Origin: a virus
Lineage: Duplodnaviria > Caudoviricetes
Length of the DNA: 53,604 nucleotides
IMG/VR virus record: IMGVR_UViG_3300017782_004909
Span: 1 to 53,604 of that record
Direction: 5' to 3' (one strand)
The position numbers and the translations under genes were made by a program. The notes beneath the pieces were generated by a model, which had not been told where the DNA came from, made no database searches, and saw only the letters and a list, made by a program, of their open reading frames with translations. Shown here piece by piece: positions 35,418 through 48,065 of this stretch. How positions within the stretch are numbered: the first letter of the stretch is position 1; the number at the start of each line of letters is the position of its first letter.

Positions 35418-35864
35418 AATTTCTTTATGCAATTCAGATCTTAGTGCCCACAGTTTTTTTCTTTCGTCAATATCTGGACAGTAACTATAGGATTGAAAAT
35501 CTATTGCATAAATTTTGTCAATTTTTCTCTCTACTGGAAAGTTTAAAGTATTGTAATCTAAAAAAGTCCAATCAGAATCTTTAAGAACTATGTCCTCGTA
35601 CACAATTTCTTGATGCGGACTAATTAAAGTACCAAAGGGTTGGCCTTTAATAAATTGCATGTTTTGAACAACTGTATTTTCACTTACAGTAAAATCAAAT
35701 TCTGGTAATCTAATTCTATTAAAGTTTTCTGTTTTTAGTCTCTCTAGTTTTTCAACAAGAATGTTCCGTTGTTCCAAACTTCTACACTCAATAGTTTTAG
35801 TTAATTTAAACTTTATTGGTGCAGAGAAAGTTTGAACACGGTCAATAACATACGTTGTGTACAT
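35397..35864 (-). CDS. Small protein-kinase-like fold protein
   Basis: MQFIKG, DYNTLNF and IYAIDF resemble kinase hinge, catalytic loop and DF motif. Confidence 0.5.
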   Translation of the reverse strand: MYTTYVIDRVQTFSAPIKFKLTKTIECRSLEQRNILVEKLERLKTENFNRIRLPEFDFTVSENTVVQNMQFIKGQPFGTLISPHQEIVYEDIVLKDSDWTFLDYNTLNFPVERKIDKIYAIDFQSYSYCPDIDERKKLWALRSELHKEILSQISS

Positions 35865-36601
35865 TAGATTAGTTTTAAAAGCTTACGGCACTCTTTTGCT
35901 GGAATGTCTTTGAAGCTATTCCAAGTCTTAACTTGGTCGGTGTCGCCATCATATTGACCCTCCTTGTATAAAGCGCGTAACCAGTCCTTAAAGCCTTCAA
36001 AGCTGCTGACGCCTACCTTATCTTGCAAATTCTTTGATAAGATGCCCTGGGGGCTAATATCGGTCGTTTTAGATATATTAGTGGTGTCAATAGGGGCTTT
36101 ATTTTTAGAGCTATCTATTTCATCACCACCAACAATATGTATATTTAAAAAGTTTCTAACACAACGAACAAAAGCACGATTTTCAGCAATACATTCTAAA
36201 AACTTTGCCGCAAAACCATTTGTATTGTTTGTTGTGGCATTTGCAATAGAAGAAAAGGTTTGTGTACCATTGCTTTCGTAGTTACTAATCCAACTAATTA
36301 AACATTGAACTACAACACGAGTGTCAGAAGACTCTGTAATATCATAGGTGACATTATGTAAACCTCTAAGTCTAGCTAATTCTTTAATACCGCTAAGCTT
36401 AATAAGCAACTGATTGTCGTCAAGACCATCAACAGAATCTGGCACTGGCATCTTGCGATACTCAAACCAATCCTTGTTTGGATATAAATGTTCTGGTTTA
36501 ATCATGGCTCTCCAATTAACTGAACCATCTTCATTGAAAACATAATCAACCGATTCTAGGAGACCATGCTCGTTTCTTTTAAATTTTTCTGGATTACTCA
36601 T
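35864..36601 (-). CDS. Probable ssDNA-annealing/recombination protein
   Basis: IKLSGIKELA and IAENRAFVRCVR match the AExRAxxRAxR pattern of phage annealing proteins. Confidence 0.5.
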   Translation of the reverse strand: MSNPEKFKRNEHGLLESVDYVFNEDGSVNWRAMIKPEHLYPNKDWFEYRKMPVPDSVDGLDDNQLLIKLSGIKELARLRGLHNVTYDITESSDTRVVVQCLISWISNYESNGTQTFSSIANATTNNTNGFAAKFLECIAENRAFVRCVRNFLNIHIVGGDEIDSSKNKAPIDTTNISKTTDISPQGILSKNLQDKVGVSSFEGFKDWLRALYKEGQYDGDTDQVKTWNSFKDIPAKECRKLLKLI

Positions 36602-37685
36602 ATAAATATAAACTTTCTAATTCTTGTTTTGATATATCATTTAATACAAAATTTGTGGAATTGTCAAGTCTATCTGCGCAAAATTCTGATATATATTTAT
36701 CTTTTGCGTTAATAAAAGTTTTGTTGGAGATGAATTTGGTGTTTTCATTCACTAACTCACTTATGTCTTTGTGCTGCGACATAAGGACTTGGAAATCAAA
36801 ATACTTTAATCTTAACTCATTAACTATTTCTTCATTTTCAGTTACCAAAACAGAAGGTATATTATATTTTTTTAAATTATTTAAAAAATCTTCATAGTCA
36901 TTTTCTGCAGAATCAACCTTAAGAACAACTTTGCGAGTATTTCTTGAAAGACGTCCAATCTCATCAGCTGGTATTTCTTGTTTTAAGAATAAAACATTTG
37001 GACTACTGTGAGACCAAAAAGATATATTGTCAATATCGTAATGTAAATCTCCGCGAAGAATAACTGTTTTACTGTTCATGTCTTGATTAATGTGAGCCTT
37101 GAAATCTGGTACGATTTCTATCGTTTCTTGATGTGAGTTAGCTCCAATATAGATAGTTTTAAATTTTATTTTTTCATCTATATTTAAAGCATCTAAAACG
37201 CTTTGTGCTATTTCTTCAGCTTTAATTTCATTAACTCGTTTTGGATTCTCTTCTAAAGCGAAGGAAGGTTTGATCTTTGAAAAATCTGGAGAAATCATTT
37301 TACTAGTTGGAGCTGGTTGACAAACCTCTGGATAAGTATTACCAACTATACAAACAGAAGGTTTGCCATAAGCATCTGCTATTTGTGCATAATGGTTAGA
37401 AACACCAAAATAACCAAGCGATTTTCTTAACATAAAGTTTTTTTGTTTAAGGCTTCTGTTGTCTCCGTTGTGGATTTCTATAACATTGATATTATGTTTC
37501 TCTAAAATAGGCTCTAATAGATTAACAACTAAACCCCAATAATCATAATTATGGGCTTTGATTTCATCCTGTGTACCTATTAAGATAAACTTATCTTGCA
37601 ATAAAGGATAAAAGTGTTCTGTAATTTTAGGTTTGCCTATTTTAACCCCTAAATCTTTTGCGTAAACTTCTGCTATATGACTCAT
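36594..37685 (-). CDS. Glycosyltransferase family 9-like protein
   Basis: HNYDYW..VV..L, YFGVSNHYAQIADAYGKPSVCIVG, VNEIKAEEI. Confidence 0.55.
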   Translation of the reverse strand: MSHIAEVYAKDLGVKIGKPKITEHFYPLLQDKFILIGTQDEIKAHNYDYWGLVVNLLEPILEKHNINVIEIHNGDNRSLKQKNFMLRKSLGYFGVSNHYAQIADAYGKPSVCIVGNTYPEVCQPAPTSKMISPDFSKIKPSFALEENPKRVNEIKAEEIAQSVLDALNIDEKIKFKTIYIGANSHQETIEIVPDFKAHINQDMNSKTVILRGDLHYDIDNISFWSHSSPNVLFLKQEIPADEIGRLSRNTRKVVLKVDSAENDYEDFLNNLKKYNIPSVLVTENEEIVNELRLKYFDFQVLMSQHKDISELVNENTKFISNKTFINAKDKYISEFCADRLDNSTNFVLNDISKQELESLYLYE

Positions 37686-37687
37686 AT

Positions 37688-39373
37688 TTAACGTAATGCG
37701 AATTCTGTTTTATCTATTCTGTTGTGAATATAATTTAAATTTCTTTGTGTACCATGATGTGGGAAAAAAGCCATATCAAAAGCACCTTTAATTGTGCCAT
37801 AACCCTCTAAAAATAATGGATTATCTATTTGTGGTGAATATGGTAAAACTTTGTATACGTCGGGATTATCTTCGATATAATCAAAGTATTGAGGATTTGT
37901 GAAAACATACAAAGAATAATTTTTATATAATTTTTTAAAATTTTCAATAAGACTATTTACCCACAAAACATCATTCATACCACCTGGAATTACAATAGCT
38001 ATAGATTTCTCTGTGTCAACTATATCAGCTAAATTAATAGTTTGTCCATCCTCTGGAGTAATTTCTACGGAATCAAAATCTATTGAAGGCATTTCATCAA
38101 TAATCTCTTCTACCTTTTTACCTACAACCTCAACTGAATAATTGTCAATGGTAAATTGTCTAGCTTTTTCGCCCATGGCTTTTCTTTTTTCTGGTTTCAT
38201 TTGCCATACTTTTTTTAGTTGTTTAGCTATGCTAGATGCGTAAGTAGATGCTTTAATAAACTGTGTCCCTGGTTCTCTGTATTCTGCCCACTCTAATGGT
38301 AAGCCACCACTCTCTACGGTGCAAGAATCTTCGCCACAAGAATAGTTTGTGACCAATGTAACAAGCTCTGTTAACTTAGCTTCAAAGATAGGTATTTCCA
38401 TACCGCCACTAGTAAATGGGTGACAATAAACATCCATTAAATTATATATGTGATTTAATTGGTATTCATTAACACCGTGTTGTATATTACTAGTGCTCAT
38501 GCTTTCTTTGACACCACAGGAAGGACAATTTTGTTTTTCGCCAGCAAAATTAGCAACTAAAAAGTGTCCACAAGAAGAACAATAATATGTTGTTAGGATA
38601 TCTGAATTATTAATGTCTTTTTCTTTTAACAATCTAGCGATATCCCAACCCTCTGACCAAGATGTATGAAGCAACAGTTTTGCTTTAGGGCAGTCTTTTT
38701 TGAATAGTTTAAAACCATCTAAAATATTTGGAACGCTCTTACGTAATTGATTTCTAAAAACAAAACCCACAATGTAAGTATCCTCTAAACCAAAAGCTTT
38801 TTTAAGATTGGCTCTCTGATTATCTGGTAATCTGTAAAAATCACTAGTTTCAATGGAACCGTGTAAAGTTTTAACATGGTCGTGTCCAGCTTTTGCCATA
38901 TCTCTTTCTGCAAAAGAAGCCCATGTATAAAAGTTTTTAGTTTTAGGCGCCGCTTCTAAAGCTAGTGGTAAAATCGGTTGACTGTCTAGTGTTGTCCAAA
39001 TCATGTGATTGATTTTATTCCACCAGAATCTATCCCAAAAACCATTGAAAGCCCAAATGTCTTCAACGCCCATATACACATCTGGCTTATATGTTTTGAT
39101 TGCTTCATCAATCATTTCTCCACCATAACCAGCGGCACGAGCTCTTTCTGGGTTTTGGTTTAGCTCTTGTACAAGTGCAGGATTGTTGGGTAAAGACCCT
39201 TGGCAGGTCCAAGGTTTCATCTTTAAATTTGGGTCTCCCCAAGTAGAGCCGTTACAAAATTCTATAATCTTGTATTTGCCAGTTTTTTGTAGGTACTTTA
39301 AAATATTTTTACAGTGTTTACCAAACCCAGTAAAAGCTTTAGAGTTATTAGAGTGATAGAGTATAGTTTTCAT
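37688..39373 (-). CDS. GT-B glycosyltransferase (GT4-like) with zinc ribbon and GT9-like C-terminal extension
   Basis: TGFG, RNQLRKSVP, YNLMDVYCHPFTSGGMEIPIFEA; CSSC...CPSC insert; GGMNDVLW. Confidence 0.8.
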   Translation of the reverse strand: MKTILYHSNNSKAFTGFGKHCKNILKYLQKTGKYKIIEFCNGSTWGDPNLKMKPWTCQGSLPNNPALVQELNQNPERARAAGYGGEMIDEAIKTYKPDVYMGVEDIWAFNGFWDRFWWNKINHMIWTTLDSQPILPLALEAAPKTKNFYTWASFAERDMAKAGHDHVKTLHGSIETSDFYRLPDNQRANLKKAFGLEDTYIVGFVFRNQLRKSVPNILDGFKLFKKDCPKAKLLLHTSWSEGWDIARLLKEKDINNSDILTTYYCSSCGHFLVANFAGEKQNCPSCGVKESMSTSNIQHGVNEYQLNHIYNLMDVYCHPFTSGGMEIPIFEAKLTELVTLVTNYSCGEDSCTVESGGLPLEWAEYREPGTQFIKASTYASSIAKQLKKVWQMKPEKRKAMGEKARQFTIDNYSVEVVGKKVEEIIDEMPSIDFDSVEITPEDGQTINLADIVDTEKSIAIVIPGGMNDVLWVNSLIENFKKLYKNYSLYVFTNPQYFDYIEDNPDVYKVLPYSPQIDNPLFLEGYGTIKGAFDMAFFPHHGTQRNLNYIHNRIDKTEFALR

Positions 39374-39845
39374 TGACTATTGTTTTAAGTTGATCGAATG
39401 ATAATTCATCTTTGTTTAGAAAAAATTCACAAGAAAAAAGTAATCTAGGTTTATCAAAATTAATTACCGTATGAGGAACTTGTGGATTAAATAAATATAT
39501 TTGATTAAGTTCATAATCTAACTGTTGTATATCTGCTTGATGAGAATCTTCTTGAAAAATGTTTTCAGAGAACAATGTAACTGAGGGGGAGTCGCTAATT
39601 AAAGCGTTAATTGAAACACCTCTACGTCCGTCTGTATGCCACTTATATGTTTTAAATGGCTCAAGGTTTAAAAGCCCAGCACGAAATGGATGCTTTTCGT
39701 ATAACCATTTTAAAAATGGATTACTTTCTAATACTTTCTCTATATCTAAAACATCAATAGAGAATCCAAAATACTCCATCTCTGCTTGTTTAGTAGCAGA
39801 GGATAAATCTAGTTTATCGGTTTCTACTTTGCAATATGGGGTCAT
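39348..39845 (-). CDS. Cupin / 2OG-Fe(II) oxygenase-like protein
   Basis: WHTD ... PHTVIN ... R facial-triad pattern. Confidence 0.6.
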   Translation of the reverse strand: MTPYCKVETDKLDLSSATKQAEMEYFGFSIDVLDIEKVLESNPFLKWLYEKHPFRAGLLNLEPFKTYKWHTDGRRGVSINALISDSPSVTLFSENIFQEDSHQADIQQLDYELNQIYLFNPQVPHTVINFDKPRLLFSCEFFLNKDELSFDQLKTIVNENYTLSL

Positions 39846-40306
39846 TTATTGTAGCTAAAAAATGTATTTAAATAAAACTCTAGTAATGATTTTAAAACCC
39901 TAGCTTCACCTAATTCTATGCCTATGCCGAATTTAAGTGCGGAGTTTTTAATCACTCCAAGTGACCAAGCTTGTACTCCATTATTTTTTGTGTACGGTTT
40001 TAAGGAGAGGCTGGTTTTATCATCGTTGTAAGTATGATAAGCTGTCCATTCTGTATATTTCTCAATAGAGTGTAATATAGCTCCAGCTTCATTTTCATTA
40101 ATTTTACAGTAAATATTTTTTTCTGGGTCTTTGGCGTTAGCGCTAAAAGATCCAGTTTTTTTATTAGAGTCCCAACTTGCTTGTTTAATAGCCTGCATCA
40201 GAAAGGTTGGTTTAGATGGGTTGCCCTCCTTATCTTTAGTGATAACTTTAAAAGAAAAAGCACAACCAGTGTTTTTGGTGTTTGGTTTGTAAAGATTATA
40301 TTGCAT
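39842..40306 (-). CDS. Probable ssDNA-binding protein (Whirly/PC4-like)
   Basis: Two repeats of beta strands plus helix (KINENEAGAIL, IELGEARVL); LYKPN..GCAFSF start. Confidence 0.45.
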   Translation of the reverse strand: MQYNLYKPNTKNTGCAFSFKVITKDKEGNPSKPTFLMQAIKQASWDSNKKTGSFSANAKDPEKNIYCKINENEAGAILHSIEKYTEWTAYHTYNDDKTSLSLKPYTKNNGVQAWSLGVIKNSALKFGIGIELGEARVLKSLLEFYLNTFFSYNK

Positions 40307-40329
40307 ATGGAACTATTATATAGTAAAAA

Positions 40330-40335
40330 GTGTAA
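40330..40335 (+). promoter_or_regulatory. GTGTAA motif (putative phage late promoter)
   Basis: Lies in the 58-bp divergent gap, 29 nt before the lone plus-strand gene. Confidence 0.45.
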
Positions 40336-40364
40336 AATTCTATATATAATTTATAATATTTTAA

Positions 40365-41021
40365 ATGCCTTATTTAACTCATAATTTACCCACGTTTACT
40401 TGTTTAATTAGAAACGAGTATCTTTACAATCATAAAAAAGGATATGGAGATTATACCATGTGTGACGTGCATTCTGTTACATCAATGGAAAAGAGAGTGC
40501 CTTTGTTTGAATGTTACCTAGATAATGGAGTTAACTGGACAAGACGACCGATTACAGCTTTGTGCTGGAAAGAGTGTGAGCCAGTTCCTTTAGAAGAAGC
40601 TATGTATTGGGATTGTTTTTCTCCATATGTAGATGTAGGTATCAGATCTAGATTAAAAGGTTTAAGAGCTATACTTATAACTCCATCAAATAAACGAGAA
40701 TGGGGCGAGTATATGTTTACAATAGACTGGGGTTGGGAGAACAAAGCTATATTAGATACTAATTTTTCAGAGCATCCAGAACATAAATGTGCGCATATGT
40801 TTAAAATGCAAAACGGTAATTTTTATGCTTACCCAAATAATAGAATTGTGTGGCATGATGATGCATGGGTCGAAGAACCACTAAAGAAAAATCCTGGGTA
40901 CGAAATAGATCAAAACTTTTATAGCGTAGAAAATAAACGTATAAAATACACAGATAACTCTTTTATGACAGAGTTTAAAGATTTGGATTATACTGAGAAC
41001 GAGTCAAAAAATGAGCCGTAA
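40365..41021 (+). CDS. Conserved-looking phage hypothetical protein
   Basis: 218-aa ORF rich in W/H/C; HPEHKCAH, GNFYAYPNNR. Confidence 0.7.
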   Translation: MPYLTHNLPTFTCLIRNEYLYNHKKGYGDYTMCDVHSVTSMEKRVPLFECYLDNGVNWTRRPITALCWKECEPVPLEEAMYWDCFSPYVDVGIRSRLKGLRAILITPSNKREWGEYMFTIDWGWENKAILDTNFSEHPEHKCAHMFKMQNGNFYAYPNNRIVWHDDAWVEEPLKKNPGYEIDQNFYSVENKRIKYTDNSFMTEFKDLDYTENESKNEP

Positions 41022-41752
41022 GAATCAGTTAAATCTTCCACAGAAGTTATTTCTTCATCTTTGCGCAATAAACCAAAGTATTTTGATTCATCACTACACC
41101 ATTTTCTACCTGTCCAAAACTCGAATCCTGGAAATGAGCTTTTGTATTTTGCATAATTTTCGTAACTGGGCCCAAGATATAAATATTTTAAACCTAAGTC
41201 TTTAGCTAGTTTTATTTCTCTATATGTAGAAAACCTACCTAAACCTAAGACTTTATCTTCGTAGCCCCAACAAAATTGATAAGCCAATAAGCTTTGTCCA
41301 ACTTTTTCTACCACACTAAAAGCTACATCTCCGTAAATTAAAAAAATATTATTACCTTTTTCGTAAACATTTATAAATTCTTTTTGAGAAAGCACTGAAG
41401 AAAAGTTTTTGTAACCAACATAGTTTCTATAAATTTTATAAAGTTTTACAAAATTTGGGTCTGTTGTTACCTCTATTTCAAGATTGGCTTTTGCTATTTT
41501 TTTCCAGGCTTTTTTTTCGTTTTTTGTTTCTGTATACTTGCTTAAGTCTAACCTAGATTGGCGACTTTGATACCAGATAATTTTGTTGTCTTTCATAAAG
41601 TTGGTGTCTTGGTTATACCATATGCTTGAGGGACACCATCCATTATTCAAAGCCTCTTGCTCCTCATCTCTTTCTACCGTAGCACTAACTAAAGTGTGTA
41701 TAAAGTCGGTGTCAGCTTGTTTGCCGCAGATGTGGTCAAAAAATAATTTCAT
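40988..41752 (-). CDS. Aminoacyl-tRNA--protein transferase (ATE1/Bpt-like)
   Basis: ALNNGW, WYQSRQSR, LYKIYRNY, LGLGRFSTYREIKLAKDLGLKYLYLG, KYKSSF..FEFW: C-terminal ATE domain pattern. Confidence 0.75.
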   Translation of the reverse strand: MKLFFDHICGKQADTDFIHTLVSATVERDEEQEALNNGWCPSSIWYNQDTNFMKDNKIIWYQSRQSRLDLSKYTETKNEKKAWKKIAKANLEIEVTTDPNFVKLYKIYRNYVGYKNFSSVLSQKEFINVYEKGNNIFLIYGDVAFSVVEKVGQSLLAYQFCWGYEDKVLGLGRFSTYREIKLAKDLGLKYLYLGPSYENYAKYKSSFPGFEFWTGRKWCSDESKYFGLLRKDEEITSVEDLTDSYGSFFDSFSV

Positions 41753-42852
41753 TATCCAAATTGGTAAAACACATCATCAGAAAACATTAAATAACCTGGC
41801 ATTTCAGATTCTATATAAGGTCTTAATTGCTGATACTTAATAAACAAATCTAGTAAGTTGTCTTGGTCTTGCACCAAAAAAGCTTTATATATATAGTCGC
41901 AAATTAATTTATAGAACTGCAACTTAAACGCTAGACTTTTATAATTTAAAAATAAATCATAGGGGACTTTTTTATTAAATTTTGAATACTCTTGGTACTT
42001 ATTAAAGAACTGTTCTTGCAAGATTGGGAATTCATGAAAATTATAATTGATACAGAAAAACGCTAAATCCCACATAGGGTTTAAGTTATAAGAATTTGTA
42101 AAATTAATAAATCTATAATTACCAGACCTATATAAAATATTTTTTAGATTTAAATTTAAATGACACAATGTAGTTTCATTCTCTGGAAAATCAGAGTGCA
42201 TTATGTAATTTTCTTTAATGTTTTTTAGTGCTGATATTAAAGTCTGTATTTTTTTATCTCTTAAACATTTGTAATATAAATCTTTACCCATGATATATTC
42301 AAAATTACCGTACGCAAAAAAATCTTCTTCAAACTGTTTTCTTTGATTTTGTTTGTACTCAAAAGAATTATGGAAGTTAGATAGATATTTTGCAAATACA
42401 TCAAGCTGATCTGTGATTTTATCTATGCCTATATTTGATATAGGTATTCCGTGTTGATGTAATGTTAATAAGTAGCAGTAAAAATCACCTTCAGAGTAAC
42501 CAATAGGTTCAAAGGTAAAGTTTTTTTTAGCTACCCTTTTAAGTAATTTGTTTTCTTTTGATAAAAATAAAGCATCATCTTTGTTACCTACTTTAATCTC
42601 ATATATTGTTTGATTAAATTCAAACATATAACAGGTATAGGACATATTTCTTTCAACGATACTCGTATTTTTATTGAAATTAAAGTCTTTTAAGAAATCG
42701 CTTAAGAAAGCGTCCTTTTCCTTAATTTCATTTAAATTAAGGATGTCAGCCTCAGAAATAGTAAGTTGTGTAGCACCTTGAACTACTCTACCCTTTATAA
42801 ACTTAGAGTAATCTATTTTGTTGGTGAATTCTGAAGATTGATTTGCTTCCAT
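41752..42852 (-). CDS. APH/choline-kinase-fold protein, probably inactive
   Basis: YEIKVG, LCHLNLNLKNIL, FINF, PMWDLA; both canonical Asp positions are Asn. Confidence 0.65.
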   Translation of the reverse strand: MEANQSSEFTNKIDYSKFIKGRVVQGATQLTISEADILNLNEIKEKDAFLSDFLKDFNFNKNTSIVERNMSYTCYMFEFNQTIYEIKVGNKDDALFLSKENKLLKRVAKKNFTFEPIGYSEGDFYCYLLTLHQHGIPISNIGIDKITDQLDVFAKYLSNFHNSFEYKQNQRKQFEEDFFAYGNFEYIMGKDLYYKCLRDKKIQTLISALKNIKENYIMHSDFPENETTLCHLNLNLKNILYRSGNYRFINFTNSYNLNPMWDLAFFCINYNFHEFPILQEQFFNKYQEYSKFNKKVPYDLFLNYKSLAFKLQFYKLICDYIYKAFLVQDQDNLLDLFIKYQQLRPYIESEMPGYLMFSDDVFYQFG

Positions 42853-42854
42853 AA

Positions 42855-44228
42855 TTACATAAAACCTATTTTGCCTGGTAAAGGTATATTATTTTTATTT
42901 TTTACATTTTCTACTGTAGTGTTTAATTTTTGAGCAAATATCTCGTATATAGTACTTGTTTTAACAAATTTACCGTTATTTTCTATCTTTGTTTTAGCTC
43001 CAGCTTCGTCAATTATGTCAAAGGCTTTGTCTGGGAATTTTTGGTGAATTAAAAATTCTTCACCTAAATTAACGATAATTTCTAAAATCTTTGTCGTAAA
43101 CTTGACGTCGTGAAATTGTTCATAGGAGGTTTTAGCCTTCTTGATTAAACTTAAGGTTTGTTCCTTTGAAGGTTCGAAAACATCTATTTTCTCAAATCTT
43201 CTGTTTAGTGCAGAATCACCTTTAAAGTATTTTTCATATTCTTCTCTAGTTGTGGCGCCAATACATCTAAAATTACCCCTAGACAAGACTGGTTTTAAAC
43301 TATTCGCTAAGTCTAAGCTACCTTCTGAATTTCCAGATCCAACGATTGTGTGTATTTCATCAATAAACAAAATGTAATCTTCGTTGCTTGTGATTTCATC
43401 AATAATTTTTTTCACCTTTTCTTCCATTTGGCCTCTATACATTGTGCCAGATAACAAAGATGTCATGTCTAACGAAAGGATTTTTTTACCTTGTAAGAAT
43501 GAAGGGCATTTTTTTTGAATGATTTTTTCTACTATACCCTCTACAATAGCTGTTTTACCAACGCCTGCCTCACCAACTAAAATAATATTACTTTTATTTT
43601 TTCTTAATAATATTTCGTAAGCTCTCTTTGTTTCTTCTTCTCTGCCAAAAATTTCAAATGTACCTTTTTCTTGAATTGTGTTATTGATGTTTTCACAAAA
43701 ATCACTAATCGAAGTTTTTGTTTTGGCTTGAGGTTGAACAGTTGGAGCTGCTCCTGCTATTGGTGGTGGTAATTCATCTTCTATACCGTGAACTATTGTA
43801 TGCTCTAACAGAGTGCAAAATTCATCAACATTGCAATCAAGACCGATAAAAAATACTCTTATTTCTCTTCGCATTTTTAAGATAGAAAGTAGTATATGAT
43901 CTAATCCAATATAATCGTTTTTGTGTTTTTTTGATATTTTTTGAGCGTAATCAAGAATTTCAAATATTTCTGGAGAAAAGATTTTTTTCTTTCTTTTGGG
44001 TTCTGTGTATTCTTCTAAAACCATCTCTATAGCTTTTCTAAAACCTCCACGTAACCAACCGTAGGTTTCCATAGCAAAGTCTATGTTGGAATGATTCATT
44101 GTAAATAAAACATAAATCATGTGTATGTCGATCACTTTCAAGTGTCCATATTTTTCTGCACACTTTTGTGATTTGCTTAATAAGCTTTTAGCTGATGGCG
44201 TTAAGTTGTATTTTAAAAAATCGCTCAT
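42855..44228 (-). CDS. ClpA/ClpC-like ATPase, N-domain plus first AAA module only
   Basis: Two Clp-N repeats, GREEE, GEAGVGKT, LFIDEIHTIVG, IGATTREEY, ALNRRF, PDKAFDIIDEA; ends in KIGFM. Confidence 0.9.
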   Translation of the reverse strand: MSDFLKYNLTPSAKSLLSKSQKCAEKYGHLKVIDIHMIYVLFTMNHSNIDFAMETYGWLRGGFRKAIEMVLEEYTEPKRKKKIFSPEIFEILDYAQKISKKHKNDYIGLDHILLSILKMRREIRVFFIGLDCNVDEFCTLLEHTIVHGIEDELPPPIAGAAPTVQPQAKTKTSISDFCENINNTIQEKGTFEIFGREEETKRAYEILLRKNKSNIILVGEAGVGKTAIVEGIVEKIIQKKCPSFLQGKKILSLDMTSLLSGTMYRGQMEEKVKKIIDEITSNEDYILFIDEIHTIVGSGNSEGSLDLANSLKPVLSRGNFRCIGATTREEYEKYFKGDSALNRRFEKIDVFEPSKEQTLSLIKKAKTSYEQFHDVKFTTKILEIIVNLGEEFLIHQKFPDKAFDIIDEAGAKTKIENNGKFVKTSTIYEIFAQKLNTTVENVKNKNNIPLPGKIGFM

Positions 44229-46801
44229 TTAATTTCTGATAATCTAGTATAAATTTTTTCGTCTAATATAGTAAGTTTTTCACCAAAGATAATATCTTCA
44301 CCTTTAGTCCCGTAAATAAAGACTATTTGCCCCTCTTTAGGTTTCTTGCCACCTTCATTGAGGTAATTGTCTAAAGTAGCCGAACGTCTATTATTGGTCA
44401 TCATGAAATTAATCTTGCCATAATCATCTTGTATTTCAACTCTCATATATTTGTTTCCAGCTCTACTTGTTCTAGATACGCAATCTGTAACAACACCAAC
44501 ATACTTTACACGGTCATTTTGTTGAATTGATTTTAATTCTAAACTGTTTACTAAGTTTTGAGTATCTTGAAAAACTTTTTTGATTTCATTTGAGTGGCTG
44601 TAGCCTAAATACTTACGTTCAAAATACCAATTAGCAAACACAAGATGTTGTTTATTTTTGTCGTATATTTGTCTATATTTATCATAATCCCTCTTAAATG
44701 TGTTAAACCTAGACTCTTTAATCAATGGTCTACCATCATCTGCTGGATAGTTTTCTTTTTTAACGTAAGCGATAGAGTTAAGTATATCATAATTAAATCG
44801 CTCACCAAGGCTTGTAAAATTCCTTTTCTCTCTGTCTGTGAGTAAGTTAAAAGCTTGTGCTTCTAAAACCAATCTACAACGATTAGGTACGCCTTTTGAT
44901 ATATCACAGAAAGAATCCATCATGCCACCTTGTATCAAACCAGATAAAACACCAATATTAATACCAGATTGTTTGGCAGATAAAAACACATCATATTTGT
45001 TTTGTTCAAGTAACTCGCACTTTCTAAAGTCTACTACATTTTCTAGTGTTTTTTCAGATACTCCCTTAACACTATTTAAGCCATATCTAATATTATTACC
45101 CTCAATAGCAAACTCCACGTCAGATTTAGATAGATCTGGTGGCAATAATTTCATATCAAAGAGACAGAGTTCTTGACTGATCAAGGCTATTTCCGCATGA
45201 GAATCTGGCTCATGCTTTGTCATTTTAAGCAAGGACAGAAAAAACTCTTTTGAATGATTAAACTTTAGGTAAGTTGTAATAGCTGCTAGAGTAGCGTAGC
45301 TGATAGAGTGCGATTTATTGAATGAATAGTTAGCAGAATCCTCGGCCACCTTCCAAAGAACATCACCAACCTGTTTGGGTAAATTGTTATCCTCTATCTT
45401 TTCTTCGATCCTAGCTTTCCAAGCTGGCATTTGATCTACTTTTTTCTTGCCGACAATACGTCTGAGTTGCTCCGCTTCATCAAGGGTAAACCCAACCTTT
45501 ACGGCCATCTTCATTAACTGCTCTTGATATAGAGGAATACCTCCAGTATAACATAAGATATCATCAAAAAACTCGTGTACAGAACTGAACACGCTTGTTT
45601 TTACATAGCTGGCATAGGTATCTAGGTAATCCAGAGCACCAGGGCGAGCAATAGCGACAACAGCAGAAAGTTCTTCAAGATTTCTGGGAGCAATTTTCCT
45701 AGCTGCCTTAAAGTTTGTATCCGCTTCAATCTGGAAGAGACCCTTTGGTGCCTCAATGAATTTGAAGTTTTCATATATGTTATCTGACTCAACATCTATA
45801 GTTTCGATGTCCATGTTAAGTTGTTTAAGAGTATCGTAAACAACAGATAATGTTCTTAATCCCAAGATGTCGAATTTAACCATCAAAGATGCAACGTCAT
45901 TCATGTCGTACCCAGATACATAATTACCGTCATTGGTTTTCTGCATAGGCATAACTTCTTGTATATTGTAGAAGCTAATAGCAATCCCCGATGGGTGAAC
46001 GCCAGTGTTCTTGTTTAATCCTTCTAGTTTTCTGGCAATTTTAAATACTTTAGGGTTATCATCACAAAACTTTTTAAGTTTCTCGCTTTCATCATAAGCT
46101 TTTTCTAACTTAAATACCTTACCGAACTGTTTTGGAATGGAGGCGCTAATGTCATTTACTTCCTCTTCTGAGAACCCCCCTACGATCTTACCGCACTCCT
46201 TTACACACAATTTACTGCTTAGTGTGTTTAAAGTTAATATCTTACAAGTTTTGCCTTTATGCTTATCTTCGATATATTTGATCACCTCGACTCTTCTATC
46301 GTAACTGATATCATTGTCCACGTCGGCCAACAAAGAGCCGTCTAGGTACGTTATATCGTCAATAATGGTCTTTTTAGCTCTACTTTTGGATACAAATCGC
46401 TCGAAAAACAAATCATACTTGATTGGATCGATATTTGTAACTTTTAATAAAAAAAGTACCAACGAGCCAGCCGCAGAACCTCGGCCTGGCCCAGTTGGTA
46501 TATGATTCTCATGACAAAAATTTAAAATATCCCAGTTTAAGAGTATGTAATCAACAAATCCAAGCTCTTGTAAAACAGATAATTCCATTTTAACTCTATC
46601 GTAATATTCTTGTTTGTTATCTAGCTTATCTATACCTCTTTCCTTAACACCTTTTAAGCATAACTCACGAAGCAGGTCATAATTAGATGATGTGTTTGAA
46701 ATACCTAACTCATCATAAAATCTTTGCTCTACCTCAATCTCTGGTAGTCTAACACCAACTGGCATTGGCTGTTTAAATGATTCTAAATTTCTAATTCCCA
46801 T
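44225..46801 (-). CDS. dnaE: DNA polymerase III alpha subunit, catalytic part lacking the PHP domain
   Basis: GPGRGSAAGSLV, FERF, DVDND, GVHPSG, KFDILGL, YQEQ, YSFNKSHS, C-terminal OB fold. Confidence 0.93.
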   Translation of the reverse strand: MGIRNLESFKQPMPVGVRLPEIEVEQRFYDELGISNTSSNYDLLRELCLKGVKERGIDKLDNKQEYYDRVKMELSVLQELGFVDYILLNWDILNFCHENHIPTGPGRGSAAGSLVLFLLKVTNIDPIKYDLFFERFVSKSRAKKTIIDDITYLDGSLLADVDNDISYDRRVEVIKYIEDKHKGKTCKILTLNTLSSKLCVKECGKIVGGFSEEEVNDISASIPKQFGKVFKLEKAYDESEKLKKFCDDNPKVFKIARKLEGLNKNTGVHPSGIAISFYNIQEVMPMQKTNDGNYVSGYDMNDVASLMVKFDILGLRTLSVVYDTLKQLNMDIETIDVESDNIYENFKFIEAPKGLFQIEADTNFKAARKIAPRNLEELSAVVAIARPGALDYLDTYASYVKTSVFSSVHEFFDDILCYTGGIPLYQEQLMKMAVKVGFTLDEAEQLRRIVGKKKVDQMPAWKARIEEKIEDNNLPKQVGDVLWKVAEDSANYSFNKSHSISYATLAAITTYLKFNHSKEFFLSLLKMTKHEPDSHAEIALISQELCLFDMKLLPPDLSKSDVEFAIEGNNIRYGLNSVKGVSEKTLENVVDFRKCELLEQNKYDVFLSAKQSGINIGVLSGLIQGGMMDSFCDISKGVPNRCRLVLEAQAFNLLTDREKRNFTSLGERFNYDILNSIAYVKKENYPADDGRPLIKESRFNTFKRDYDKYRQIYDKNKQHLVFANWYFERKYLGYSHSNEIKKVFQDTQNLVNSLELKSIQQNDRVKYVGVVTDCVSRTSRAGNKYMRVEIQDDYGKINFMMTNNRRSATLDNYLNEGGKKPKEGQIVFIYGTKGEDIIFGEKLTILDEKIYTRLSEIK

Positions 46802-47412
46802 ATTTGTTTTTGAAATATTTCGAAGTTCTTTTCAATATCGTATAACGCATCATGTAGCTTTGTTTCATCAAAGTCAATATTATAATGCTGTAATAAATGT
46901 TTCTGGTTTGTTTTCAAACCACGTTCTCTAAAGTGTAGGTATCTCATCTGCCAAGCAAGTAATTCACCACCTGGATTCTTATCTCCTTTTGCTATTGCTT
47001 TTGCTAAAATATTTGTATCTAAAAGTTCGCCAATAAAGTTTTCATAACTAATTCTTACGCCCATATTTCTAAGCCAAACACCTAATATGTAAATATCGTA
47101 ACCAAGAATATTGTGACCAAGAACAATGTTATTACTATACAAAGCTTTTTCGAAGTCTTTCCAAACAACCATTGGGTCTTCTGCGACAGATTCGTAATGA
47201 TCTCTATCAAATCCAGTAACTCGTGCGGCATCTGGAGAAACGTTTAAGTCTTTCCATTTGATAAAGCGATTATGTTTTTTTATGACCTTTTTGCCTTCGC
47301 ATTCAATCCAAGCTATCTGCCAAGGTTTAGAGGTGATTAAGTTTAATCCCTCTGTCTCGGTATCAAAAACTACGTAGCGCTGTTTAAAGTTGTATCTGAG
47401 TAATTCTTCCAT
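46783..47412 (-). CDS. DEDDh 3'-5' exonuclease (DnaQ-like)
   Basis: FDTETEGL, GHNILGYD, LDT, HDALYD. Confidence 0.88.
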   Translation of the reverse strand: MEELLRYNFKQRYVVFDTETEGLNLITSKPWQIAWIECEGKKVIKKHNRFIKWKDLNVSPDAARVTGFDRDHYESVAEDPMVVWKDFEKALYSNNIVLGHNILGYDIYILGVWLRNMGVRISYENFIGELLDTNILAKAIAKGDKNPGGELLAWQMRYLHFRERGLKTNQKHLLQHYNIDFDETKLHDALYDIEKNFEIFQKQIWELEI

Positions 47413-48065
47413 GATTCGAAACAAAATTCATCACTACCAAAGTGATCTAGTCCAGGGTTTGATAGATCGTAAGTTCTACCTATCCTGCGGTTACAAATTA
47501 ATTTATAAGTTTGAAAAGCCAAAACATCTTCTTTGTCTTTGTAATATATTGACTTTGCATTAAAGTGTTCGTTTAAATGATTCTTGCAATAATTTAATAT
47601 TTTATCTTCAATTAGACAATCAAAAGGGAGATTGTTATCTTCTATTATAAAAGATATATCACGAGGTAAATCAACAACACAGTTAGAAAAAGTTGTTAAG
47701 TTTTTATGTAAAAACGAATCATAAAAAGGTACAGTATACTGCAAATCTTTTGTAGAATCCCAAGGTCTTGTAATCTTTATGTCTGATTGTTGTGTATAAA
47801 GATTATATAATTCTTTCGCGCCAGAATCACCATTTGCAAAAGCAATCATTTTACTTTCAGATTCTTCGCTATGATCGTCATTATATATAGAGAAACGTAA
47901 TCCAAAACGTAGTCTTTCTCCAAATTTTCTAAAGGCTTCTGGAAAACCCGTCATACTATCTTCAACAAAATAAACCTCTTCAAAGTCTTTTGTTAACTCA
48001 TGTACGTCATCTATTCGTAATATACTTTTACCTATAGATGAATGTGTCTTAAATAGTGGAATCAT
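47370..48065 (-). CDS. Stand-alone PHP domain of Pol III alpha
   Basis: IPLFKTHSSIGKSILRI, VEDSMTGF, FGLRF, AFAN...G.K.L, SIYY: degenerate DnaE N-terminus. Confidence 0.7.
   Translation of the reverse strand: MIPLFKTHSSIGKSILRIDDVHELTKDFEEVYFVEDSMTGFPEAFRKFGERLRFGLRFSIYNDDHSEESESKMIAFANGDSGAKELYNLYTQQSDIKITRPWDSTKDLQYTVPFYDSFLHKNLTTFSNCVVDLPRDISFIIEDNNLPFDCLIEDKILNYCKNHLNEHFNAKSIYYKDKEDVLAFQTYKLICNRRIGRTYDLSNPGLDHFGSDEFCFESWKNYSDTTLNSAT

What the first reader, a model, noticed from the sequence alone, without database searches (positions are those of the whole stretch)
40988..44228. Candidate phage-encoded tag-and-degrade module: mini-ClpA, pseudokinase and aminoacyl-tRNA--protein transferase
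Seen: three tightly packed genes directly behind dnaE (ATGA overlap, 2-nt gap, TAATG overlap) encode a ClpA/C-like ATPase, a kinase-fold protein and an ATE1/Bpt-like transferase. Known: bacterial Bpt/Aat add destabilising N-terminal residues that route proteins to ClpAP in the N-degron pathway, and Clp N-domains dock adaptors. Inference: the phage may carry its own degron writer, adaptor and unfoldase to redirect host ClpP against host or defence proteins. I do not know of a described phage system with this combination.
Basis: partly seen in the sequence, partly recalled or inferred. Interest (0 to 1): 0.85.

Follow-up and report, generated by a model that had tools for sequence, protein, structure and literature searches.

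The report
Phage Clp motor, pseudokinase, aminoacyl transferase
An uncultured marine phage packs a half-size protein-unfolding motor, a dead kinase and an enzyme related to those that tag proteins for destruction into one operon, but related phages show these are separable parts, and the tagging enzyme really travels with a different neighbouring gene.

Summary
Three minus-strand genes follow dnaE with the stated junctions. They encode a Clp N-domain+D1-only ATPase, an APH/choline-kinase-fold protein lacking catalytic Asp residues, and an ATE/Bpt-like aminoacyl-tRNA transferase.

The "one tag-and-degrade module" reading fails its own linkage test. Of 47 viral loci carrying the transferase, 10 also carry the Clp gene. 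Six whole records with the transferase have no Clp, one of them rated 100% complete. Six of 6 sibling loci (dnaE 92-95% identical) keep Clp+kinase but lack the transferase.

The transferase's constant neighbour is the convergent gene 40365-41021. It is adjacent in 43 of 44 informative loci, in three different arrangements. That gene is an all-beta, SH3/Tudor-like protein mis-annotated in GenBank phages as PurM or ferredoxin.

Two points still favour a proteolysis link. First, 118 of 120 one-ring Clp relatives end in Ile-Gly-Phe, the ClpP-docking tripeptide. Second, the transferase keeps ATE1's catalytic Tyr-Lys and its Arg-pocket Glu (64 of 65 each).

The scan noted both the one-ring Clp and the phage ATE-like gene before on other DNA. 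My verdict: real and novel parts, two separable units, and cooperation that is possible in this lineage but unproven.

The parts
44225..46801 (-). dnaE-type DNA polymerase III alpha (context). Its stop overlaps the clp start (ATGA).
   Evidence: Pfam DNA_pol3_alpha 1.9e-62, finger 2.9e-28, HHH_6 1.5e-13. Junction read. dnaE directly followed by clp in 15 of 15 clp-bearing loci with room upstream.
42855..44228 (-). One-ring Clp/Hsp100 ATPase: N-domain, D1 AAA+ module, lid, then a short tail. No M-domain and no D2.
   Evidence: Walker A GEAGVGKT, Walker B ILFIDEIH, pore-loop MYRG and RRF are seen in the ORF and align to ClpC. Identity to 10 relatives by region: N-domain 37-58%, D1 large 63-84%.
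42861..42869 (-). Codons for Ile454-Gly455-Phe456, one residue before the stop: the putative ClpP-docking tripeptide.
   Evidence: Read (ata ggt ttt atg taa). IGF lies in the last 8 residues of 118 of 120 database relatives; the 2 exceptions are short (412 and 448 aa). It is also present in all 10 locus-derived relatives.
41752..42852 (-). APH/choline-kinase-fold pseudokinase, fast-evolving.
   Evidence: In an alignment of 10 sequences the ATP-site Lys and Glu are kept in 10 of 10. The catalytic Asp of HxDxxxxN is Asp in 3 of 10 and Asn in the window. The Mg-binding Asp (LicA 'LIDWE') is Asn in 10 of 10. Identity to relatives is 17-33%, while dnaE is 79-95%.
40988..41752 (-). ATE/Bpt-like aminoacyl-tRNA-dependent transferase (ATE_C core; N-terminal part not recognisable as ATE_N).
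   Evidence: AF2 model: pLDDT 81.5, pTM 0.82.
40365..41021 (+). The transferase's conserved partner gene. It is an all-beta SH3/Tudor-like protein of unknown function (phrog_3704, labelled 'PurM'/'ferredoxin' in GenBank phages), convergent with the transferase gene and overlapping its 3' end by 34 nt.
   Evidence: phrog_3704 1.2e-47. 112 phage records match. AF2 pLDDT 90.1. Best PDB Foldseek E 0.014, TM 0.21. No Pfam family for 57 of 57 members. Adjacent to the transferase in 43 of 44 informative loci and in L116.

Best explanation
The three genes are real and lie close enough to be co-transcribed, at the tail of the phage's replication operon (DnaB, primase, nuclease, exonuclease, DnaE). They are two separable units that this lineage happens to have placed side by side, not one inherited machine.

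Unit 1 is the Clp gene and the kinase-like gene, fixed behind dnaE.
- Shown: the Clp protein is a ClpC/ClpA-type N-domain plus a first AAA+ ring with intact ATPase and pore-loop motifs. It has no second ring, and its tail ends in Ile-Gly-Phe in essentially every relative.
- Inferred: six tails plug into the hydrophobic pockets of the host's ClpP. No phage ClpP was found. The motor would then feed proteins chosen by its fast-evolving N-domain into the host protease.
- Shown: the kinase-fold protein keeps its nucleotide-site Lys and Glu but lacks the Mg-binding Asp in all relatives.
- Inferred: it cannot phosphorylate and acts as a binding protein, perhaps a selector or regulator of the motor.

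Unit 2 is the ATE/Bpt-like transferase plus the convergent gene 40365-41021.
- Shown: the pair stays adjacent in three arrangements (partner then transferase, transferase then partner, convergent). It flips as a block in one relative. In near-identical siblings it is replaced by a lone, divergent copy of the partner gene.
- Shown: the transferase keeps the catalytic Tyr-Lys of ATE1 and the Glu that ATE1 needs to hold arginine.
- Inferred: it moves a basic amino acid (Arg or Lys) from charged tRNA onto a protein amino group, acting on or together with the beta-barrel partner.

Because the two units share an operon here, tagged proteins could be fed to the phage motor or to host ClpS-ClpAP. That cooperation would be optional, not built in.
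For: Separability.
- tblastn of the window's genes on 47 transferase-bearing IMG/VR loci found Clp in 10 of 47 and the partner gene adjacent in 43 of 47. The 4 misses are L013 and three loci cut at the transferase.
- Whole-record searches for Clp: 0 of 5, including a 59-kb record rated 100% complete and a 50-kb record rated 84%. The 141-kb record G008 also has no match.
- A Clp-seeded search gave 7 loci with dnaE 92-95% identical. All 6 with room downstream have clp+kinase, no transferase, and a 23-24%-identical partner-family gene in the same slot.
- In L009 the transferase+partner pair is inverted as a block next to kinase-clp-dnaE.
- L008 has clp and the transferase but only 267 nt between them, so no kinase.
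- In other phage types the partner and transferase ORFs overlap by 1-4 nt on the same strand. In L116 the transferase comes first, with a 2-nt gap.

Clp.
- IGF is present in 118 of 120 relatives.
- No ClpP was found in 4 related partial records.

Transferase.
- ATE_C is matched by 20 of 20 family members.
- Using the alignment to the K. lactis Ate1 chain 7wfx and the residues named in PMC9351520 (passages and section 7): K304 maps to K204, Y303 to Y203 and E277 to E179, each kept in 64 of 65 sequences. W260 maps to W162, also 64 of 65.

Co-expression in this lineage.
- The kinase and transferase ORFs overlap by 1 nt or are 1-5 nt apart in L001, L003, L004, L007, L014 and L027.
Against: - No experiment exists. 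ClpP docking, aminoacyl transfer and any partnership are all inferences.
- Most viral records searched are fragments (14-84% complete), so absence of Clp is firm only for the one 100%-complete record.
- The loci were found by seeding with one gene at a time, so the counts are not an unbiased census. Several loci are near-duplicates: L004, L005 and L006; L050 to L054.
- The partner gene often occurs without the transferase. Only 15 of 58 partner-seeded loci have the transferase, and Synechococcus phages DSL-LC02 and S-B05 have none nearby. The dependence is therefore one-way at best.
- ATE_N, which holds the pocket for acidic N-termini, is matched by 0 of 20 members at E<=1, so the acceptor is unknown.
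- At the position of klAte1 Tyr289 the family has Leu, Val or Ile, like Bpt. The donor amino acid is therefore not settled.
Confidence: 0.55

Rival explanations
1. One reading: a dedicated three-part N-degron hijack. The transferase writes a destabilising N-terminal residue, the pseudokinase is the adaptor on the Clp N-domain, and the one-ring Clp feeds tagged proteins to host ClpP.
For: - All three genes sit in one operon with conserved tight junctions in 8 sequence types of this lineage.
- The IGF tail is conserved in 118 of 120 relatives.
- The transferase's catalytic Tyr-Lys is kept in 64 of 65 sequences.
- The Clp N-domain is the fastest-evolving part of the motor (37-58% identity against 63-84% for D1), as expected of a substrate- or adaptor-binding surface.
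Against: - The transferase is missing from 6 of 6 sibling loci that have clp+kinase.
- Six transferase-bearing records have no Clp.
- L008 lacks the kinase.
- The transferase pairs with another gene in 43 of 44 informative loci.
- ATE_N is not detected in 0 of 20 members.
- No ClpS was found in 4 related records.
- Kinase distances do not track N-domain distances once D1 is controlled for (partial r 0.13, permutation p 0.17, n=10; a weak test).
Confidence: 0.12
2. The transferase does not act on protein N-termini. It aminoacylates a lipid, a cell-wall or glycan precursor, or a small molecule, in the manner of FemX, MprF/aa-PG synthases or Sbb17.
For: - The ATE_N acceptor domain is not recognisable (0 of 20).
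- The four Zn-finger Cys of klAte1 (PMC9351520) have no conserved counterpart in the alignment.
- Second-tier Foldseek matches are aa-PG synthases, MprF, FemX, Sbb17 and L/F-transferase at E 5e-5 to 3e-4.
- A glycosyltransferase-like gene (37688-39373, Glycos_transf_1 6.7e-5, below the cut-off) lies in the conserved block downstream.
Against: - The best sequence and fold matches are all ATE1/Bpt: NCBIfam arginyltransferase 3.1e-10, PDB ATE1 5.7e-4 with the family profile, and Foldseek ranks 1-10.
- ATE1's Arg-pocket Glu is kept in 64 of 65 sequences.
- No membrane segment was evident by eye in the 254-aa sequence; none was tested for.
Confidence: 0.15
3. The one-ring Clp works without proteolysis. 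Either it is a remodelling chaperone for the phage replisome, since it always follows dnaE, or its IGF tails block host ClpP instead of feeding it.
For: - clp overlaps the dnaE stop in the window and follows dnaE in every clp-bearing locus with room upstream.
- From recall: D1 rings of two-ring Clp proteins are the weaker motors, and ClpA and ClpX are known to remodel replication proteins of P1, Mu and lambda.
Against: - A strictly kept IGF in 118 of 120 relatives argues for ClpP contact of some kind.
- Intact Walker A/B motifs and the pore-loop Tyr argue for active translocation.
Confidence: 0.18

Closest known systems
Bpt (bacterial Leu-tRNA-protein transferase) and ATE1 (eukaryotic arginyltransferase)
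   Same: - Size is like Bpt (254 aa; NCBIfam Bpt-type models are 230-256 positions).
- The ATE_C GNAT core passes Pfam's cut-off.
- The best fold match is ATE1.
- The catalytic Tyr-Lys and the Trp near the active site are kept.
- The Glu equivalent to klAte1 Glu277 is kept, as in ATE1; Bpt has Gln there (PMC9351520).
   Different: - No ATE_N match in 0 of 20 members and no Zn-finger cysteines.
- Scores are far below the NCBIfam equivalog cut-offs (39.9 bits against 170).
- It is phage-encoded and always sits beside an SH3/Tudor-like gene.
- The acceptor and the donor amino acid are unknown.
ClpC/ClpA (class I Clp/Hsp100 partners of ClpP)
   Same: N-domain plus D1, aligning to B. subtilis ClpC residues 7-406 with Walker A/B, the pore-loop Tyr and Arg fingers.
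   Different: - No D2 ring. By recall, D2 is where ClpA and ClpC carry their ClpP-docking loop.
- No M-domain in the window's protein. The ~498-aa relatives have a ~45-aa insertion at that place.
- The IGF sits at the extreme C-terminus instead.
ClpX (one-ring ClpP partner with IGF loops) and the C-terminal docking tails of proteasomal ATPases (PAN, Mpa) - both recalled
   Same: A single AAA+ ring and the IGF tripeptide, as in ClpX. Docking through a flexible C-terminal tail would work like the tails of PAN or Mpa.
   Different: The ring is of the D1 (class I) type, not ClpX-type. The IGF is at the terminus, not in an internal loop. No binding data exist.
Choline kinase LicA and APH(3') aminoglycoside kinases
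   Same: Same fold by profile (2.7e-6 and 1e-5) and by Atlas structure search (TM 0.61-0.63). The ATP-site Lys and Glu are kept.
   Different: The Mg-binding Asp is replaced by Asn in 10 of 10. The catalytic Asp is kept in only 3 of 10. The match is below the Pfam APH cut-off.
McsB-ClpC (a protein arginine kinase that tags and delivers substrates to ClpCP) - recalled, as an analogy only
   Same: A kinase-type protein encoded next to a ClpC-like unfoldase, with the N-domain as reader.
   Different: McsB has a phosphagen-kinase fold and is active. This protein has an APH fold and lacks catalytic residues.

Membership tests
ATE/Bpt aminoacyl-tRNA-protein transferases | ATE_C (PF04377) domain above the curated cut-off | tested here: met
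   27.9 bits against a cut-off of 25. 20 of 20 family members match, best E 2.3e-8.
ATE/Bpt aminoacyl-tRNA-protein transferases | ATE_N (PF04376) domain with the Cys/Zn motif and the basic pocket for acidic N-termini (klAte1 Arg80) | tested here: not met
   0 of 20 members match ATE_N at E<=1. There are no conserved Cys in the N-terminal 70 residues. Invariant Arg64 and Arg67 exist, but their equivalence to Arg80 could not be established. The Bpt/Ate1 alignment is in the paper's supplement, which is closed.
ATE/Bpt aminoacyl-tRNA-protein transferases | Catalytic Lys (klAte1 Lys304, FemX Lys305) and the preceding Tyr | tested here: met
   The alignment to chain 7wfx_A (chain numbering is native +4) puts Y303/K304 on Y203/K204, each kept in 64 of 65 sequences. 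The roles of these residues come from PMC9351520 passages.
ATE/Bpt aminoacyl-tRNA-protein transferases | Overall fold like solved ATE1 | tested here: met
   Foldseek PDB ranks 1-10 are all ATE1 (E 4.4e-7 to 2.6e-5, TMq 0.52-0.59), using a model with pLDDT 81.5.
ATE/Bpt aminoacyl-tRNA-protein transferases | Transfers Arg or Leu to N-terminal Asp or Glu of proteins | not testable with these tools
   Needs an enzyme assay. The pocket residues are mixed: Glu179 is ATE1-like, while Leu/Val/Ile191 is Bpt-like.
Class I Clp/Hsp100 (ClpA/ClpC) | Clp N-domain and D1 AAA+ module | tested here: met
   Matches the NCBIfam ClpA model at positions 4-443 and ClpC residues 7-406. Pfam Clp_N alone is just under its cut-off (19.5 against 20.7).
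Class I Clp/Hsp100 (ClpA/ClpC) | Second AAA+ module (D2) carrying the ClpP-binding loop | tested here: not met
   The protein ends 17 residues after the D1 lid. The only D2 alignment to ClpC is noise (0.2 bits). The score is far below the ClpA equivalog cut-off (331 against 993).
ClpP-partner unfoldases in general | An [IL]G[FL] tripeptide available to dock on ClpP | tested here: met
   IGF at residues 454-456 of 457, and in 118 of 120 relatives. Actual binding was not tested.
APH/choline-kinase phosphotransferases | Fold | tested here: met
   Family profile against the PDB: LicA 2.7e-6, APH(3') 1e-5. Atlas TM 0.61-0.63.
APH/choline-kinase phosphotransferases | Catalytic Asp (HxDxxxxN) and Mg-binding Asp | tested here: not met
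   The window has HLNLNLKN and INF. The catalytic Asp is present in 3 of 10 relatives and the Mg-binding Asp in 0 of 10.
Bacterial Leu/N-degron pathway as a gene set (Aat/Bpt, ClpS, ClpA, ClpP) | Writer, N-recognin, unfoldase and protease present and inherited together | tested here: not met
   No ClpS and no ClpP in 4 related records. The writer and the unfoldase are unlinked in relatives.

The most novel reading that the evidence does not exclude
In this phage lineage two mobile parts have been joined into a working private degradation route. The ATE-like enzyme arginylates chosen host or defence proteins. The fast-evolving Clp N-domain reads the tag, with or without the dead kinase. The one-ring motor then feeds the tagged proteins into host ClpP through six C-terminal IGF tails, a docking mode not described for any Clp. 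Separately, the transferase plus the SH3/Tudor-like protein would be a new two-gene, tRNA-dependent protein-modification system spread across marine phages.
Probability: 0.12. Interest if true: 0.85.

Novelty: new variant of a known kind. Interest (0 to 1): 0.6.

Why it matters
I found no paper describing a phage-encoded ATE/Bpt-type transferase or a one-ring Clp with a terminal IGF. The searches covered only the held open-access library.

If the transferase tags proteins, marine phages would have a tRNA-dependent way to rewrite host protein stability. If the motor docks on ClpP by its tail, it is a new solution to ATPase-protease coupling.

The analysis also corrects a long-standing mis-annotation. 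The 'PurM'/'ferredoxin' gene matches 112 GenBank phage records and is counted as a purine-synthesis auxiliary gene in surveys such as PMC9599517 (passage). It is predicted to be an all-beta protein unlike any solved structure.

Tried and rejected
- Complex prediction of the transferase (A1) with the partner protein (A2) returned 'no answer', score 0.00. This is not evidence either way.
I used the loci already held and whole-record searches by handle instead.
- No whole genome is held for the window.
- A single-sequence search for kinase relatives in viral contigs found none.
- Mirror-tree test of kinase against Clp N-domain distances: partial r 0.13, p 0.17, n=10. Uninformative.
- Promoter and terminator scan: at chance level.
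- PADLOC: only generic AAA hits for Clp, nothing for the other proteins.
- PHROGs: no family for the kinase or the transferase.
- tblastn of the transferase against 50,697 GenBank phage records: no match.
- blastn of the trio: only short Clp-core matches.
- Two 250-260-aa neighbours of the partner gene in Synechococcus phages DSL-LC02 and S-B05 are not transferase relatives (hhalign probability below 1%).
- The C-terminal S[YF]MT[EQ]F motif of the partner protein occurs with and without the transferase, so it is not a transferase-specific feature.
- Partner protein: Atlas gave no usable hit, Pfam none for 57 of 57 members, PDB by sequence none, PDB by fold none significant.
- BFVD fold search with the transferase model: one 143-aa fragment relative and a FemAB-family phage protein.
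- No tRNA genes in the window.
- Sequencing runs: the DNA is held by marine viral and seawater metagenome runs. No RNA holder is listed.
- The supplements of PMC9351520 (the Bpt/Ate1 alignment) are closed, so the Arg80 equivalent could not be mapped.

Full report
What is there.

The window is a piece of an uncultured marine phage. It carries rIIA/rIIB, a minor tail protein and a clamp-loader-like gene. It also has a replication block on the minus strand: DnaB-type helicase, primase, PD-(D/E)XK nuclease, RNase T-type exonuclease and DnaE. No cultured phage is close. DnaE is at most 31% identical to any GenBank phage, Clp at most 40%, and the transferase has no match at all.

The junctions are ATGA, a 2-nt gap and TAATG.

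The Clp protein.

It aligns to B. subtilis ClpC residues 7-406, which is the N-domain plus D1. It has Walker A, Walker B, the pore-loop Tyr and the Arg fingers. It covers only positions 4-443 of the 734-position ClpA model. It has no M-domain and no D2.

It ends ...GKIGFM. An earlier first-reader note on this same stretch (e1-6348249) pointed me to that tail. I tested it:
- 118 of 120 database relatives (454-503 aa) have IGF within their last 8 residues. The two exceptions are short, at 412 and 448 aa.
- All 10 relatives taken from loci have it too.

The residues before the IGF vary. By recall, IGF/IGL/VGF is the tripeptide with which ClpX, ClpA and ClpC dock on ClpP, and in ClpA and ClpC it lies in the missing D2. 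I found no ClpP or ClpS gene in four related partial viral records, so any ClpP would be the host's.

The N-domain (37-58% identical to relatives) and the linker (26-50%) evolve much faster than the D1 core (63-84%). The flanking dnaE stays at 79-95%.

The kinase-like protein.

Pfam barely sees it (APH E 0.067). A profile of 10 relatives matches choline kinase LicA and APH(3'), and the Atlas model matches APH/choline-kinase clusters.
- The ATP-site Lys and Glu are kept in 10 of 10.
- The Asp that aligns with LicA 'LIDWE' is Asn in 10 of 10.
- The catalytic Asp is kept in only 3 of 10 and is Asn in the window.

This agrees with note e1-6348250. The protein is 17-33% identical among relatives. 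It is missing altogether in L008, where 267 nt separate clp from the transferase.

The transferase.

ATE_C passes Pfam's cut-off and is matched by 20 of 20 family members. ATE_N is matched by 0 of 20. A model with pLDDT 81.5 matches ATE1 structures best (E 4.4e-7). Next come aa-PG synthases, MprF, FemX, Sbb17 and the L/F-transferase.

I mapped residues using the alignment to the K. lactis Ate1 chain and the residues named in PMC9351520 (passages and section 7 read):
- The catalytic Tyr303/Lys304 map to Y203/K204.
- Glu277 maps to E179. This is the one charged residue of the arginine pocket; it is essential in ATE1 and is Gln in Bpt.
- Each of the three is kept in 64 of 65 sequences.
- Tyr289 maps to Leu/Val/Ile191, which is Bpt-like.
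- The Zn-finger cysteines have no counterpart.
- The Arg80 pocket could not be mapped.

So this is a true but aberrant member of the ATE/Bpt superfamily. It is probably active and possibly uses a basic amino acid. Its acceptor is unknown.

Is the trio a unit?

No.
- Seeding with the transferase gave 47 viral loci. Clp is present in 10 of them. The neighbouring plus-strand gene 40365-41021 is adjacent in 43. The four misses are L013 and three loci cut at the transferase.
- In most of these phages the two ORFs are on one strand and overlap by 1-4 nt. In a MAG contig the order is reversed. In the window's lineage they converge and overlap by 34 nt. In L009 the pair is flipped as a block, so that the partner gene, not the transferase, continues the dnaE-clp-kinase operon.
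- Whole-record searches found no Clp in 6 transferase-bearing records, one of them rated 100% complete.
- Seeding with Clp gave 7 loci whose dnaE is 92-95% identical to the window's. All 6 with room have clp and the kinase, no transferase, and a 23-24%-identical member of the partner family in the same slot.

The transferase and its 'type' of partner gene therefore behave as a replaceable two-gene cassette, and clp-kinase stays with dnaE.

The dependence is one-way. Only 15 of 58 partner-seeded loci have the transferase. That is all 15 loci with a partner at least 85% identical and room to see a neighbour, and none of the rest. Two cultured Synechococcus phages have a 62-66% partner without the transferase.

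The partner gene.

It belongs to phrog_3704. It matches 112 GenBank phage records: cyanomyophages, pelagiphages and Flavobacterium phages. They label it PurM, phosphoribosylaminoimidazole synthetase or ferredoxin. In HTVC008M it lies between the two RNR subunit genes.

An AF2 model from 57 diverse relatives has pLDDT 90.1 and is all-beta. Its nearest PDB folds are tandem Tudor/SH3-like barrels at non-significant scores (E 0.014, TM 0.21). No Pfam family matches it. It is neither PurM nor a ferredoxin, and its function is unknown. A complex prediction with the transferase gave no answer.

Reading.

The obligate three-part module is not supported.

I read the locus as a ClpP-directed one-ring unfoldase with a dead-kinase companion, next to an independent transferase-plus-barrel cassette. 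In this lineage the two are co-expressed and may cooperate.

Limits.
- All functions are inferred.
- The counts come from seeded searches over fragmentary contigs with near-duplicates.
- Motif names for Clp and kinases are recalled.
- The literature searches cover only the held library.

The scan had already noted the one-ring Clp with the IGF tail on other DNA (e1-5349459, e1-5978796; e1-5975911 followed up with the same reading). It had also noted phage ATE/Bpt-like genes (e1-6204954, e1-5763517, e1-5763521, e1-5875836; none followed up).

Noticed in passing
window 40365-41021 (+); 112 GenBank phage records: The widespread marine-phage gene annotated 'PurM', 'phosphoribosylaminoimidazole synthetase' or 'ferredoxin' is predicted with high confidence (pLDDT 90) to be an all-beta SH3/Tudor-like protein with no solved relative and no Pfam family. 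The metabolic label looks wrong.
   Followed up: partly
L003, L007, L008, L009, L014, L050 Clp genes: The ~495-503-aa relatives of the one-ring Clp carry a ~45-residue insertion right after the DEAGAK motif, where ClpC has its M-domain. The window's 457-aa form and its closest relatives lack it.
   Followed up: no
window 44225-48065; L004 1522-2739, L007 1715-2386: The 858-aa DnaE starts with the polymerase core and gave no PHP-domain hit in Pfam. An RNase T-type exonuclease gene overlaps its start. Some relatives have an extra 405-aa or 223-aa ORF inserted between the exonuclease gene and dnaE.
   Followed up: no
window 40328-40364: A GTGTAA hexamer lies about 30 nt upstream of the start of the partner gene. 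If so, the partner gene and the transferase could be expressed at different times in this lineage.
   Followed up: no
L116 (contig of a MAG labelled Melainabacteria): The only hit in 185,579 species genomes is a 13.8-kb, 34% GC contig with the transferase and partner pair. It is probably a phage contig binned into the MAG, so it is not a reliable host clue.
   Followed up: partly
window 35864-40306 and the same block in L001-L009, L014, L027, L048-L054: A conserved downstream block (154-aa, 561-aa glycosyltransferase-like, 363-aa and 245-aa genes) accompanies the locus in all relatives. The 363-aa gene is only 39-44% identical while its neighbours are 63-87%.
   Followed up: no
L118 (Pelagibacter phage HTVC008M 122089-122736): In HTVC008M the partner-family gene sits between the RNR alpha and beta subunit genes. 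From their sequences only (not tested), the large ORFs upstream of the pair in L011 and L020 also look RNR-like. This hints at a link to nucleotide metabolism.
   Followed up: no
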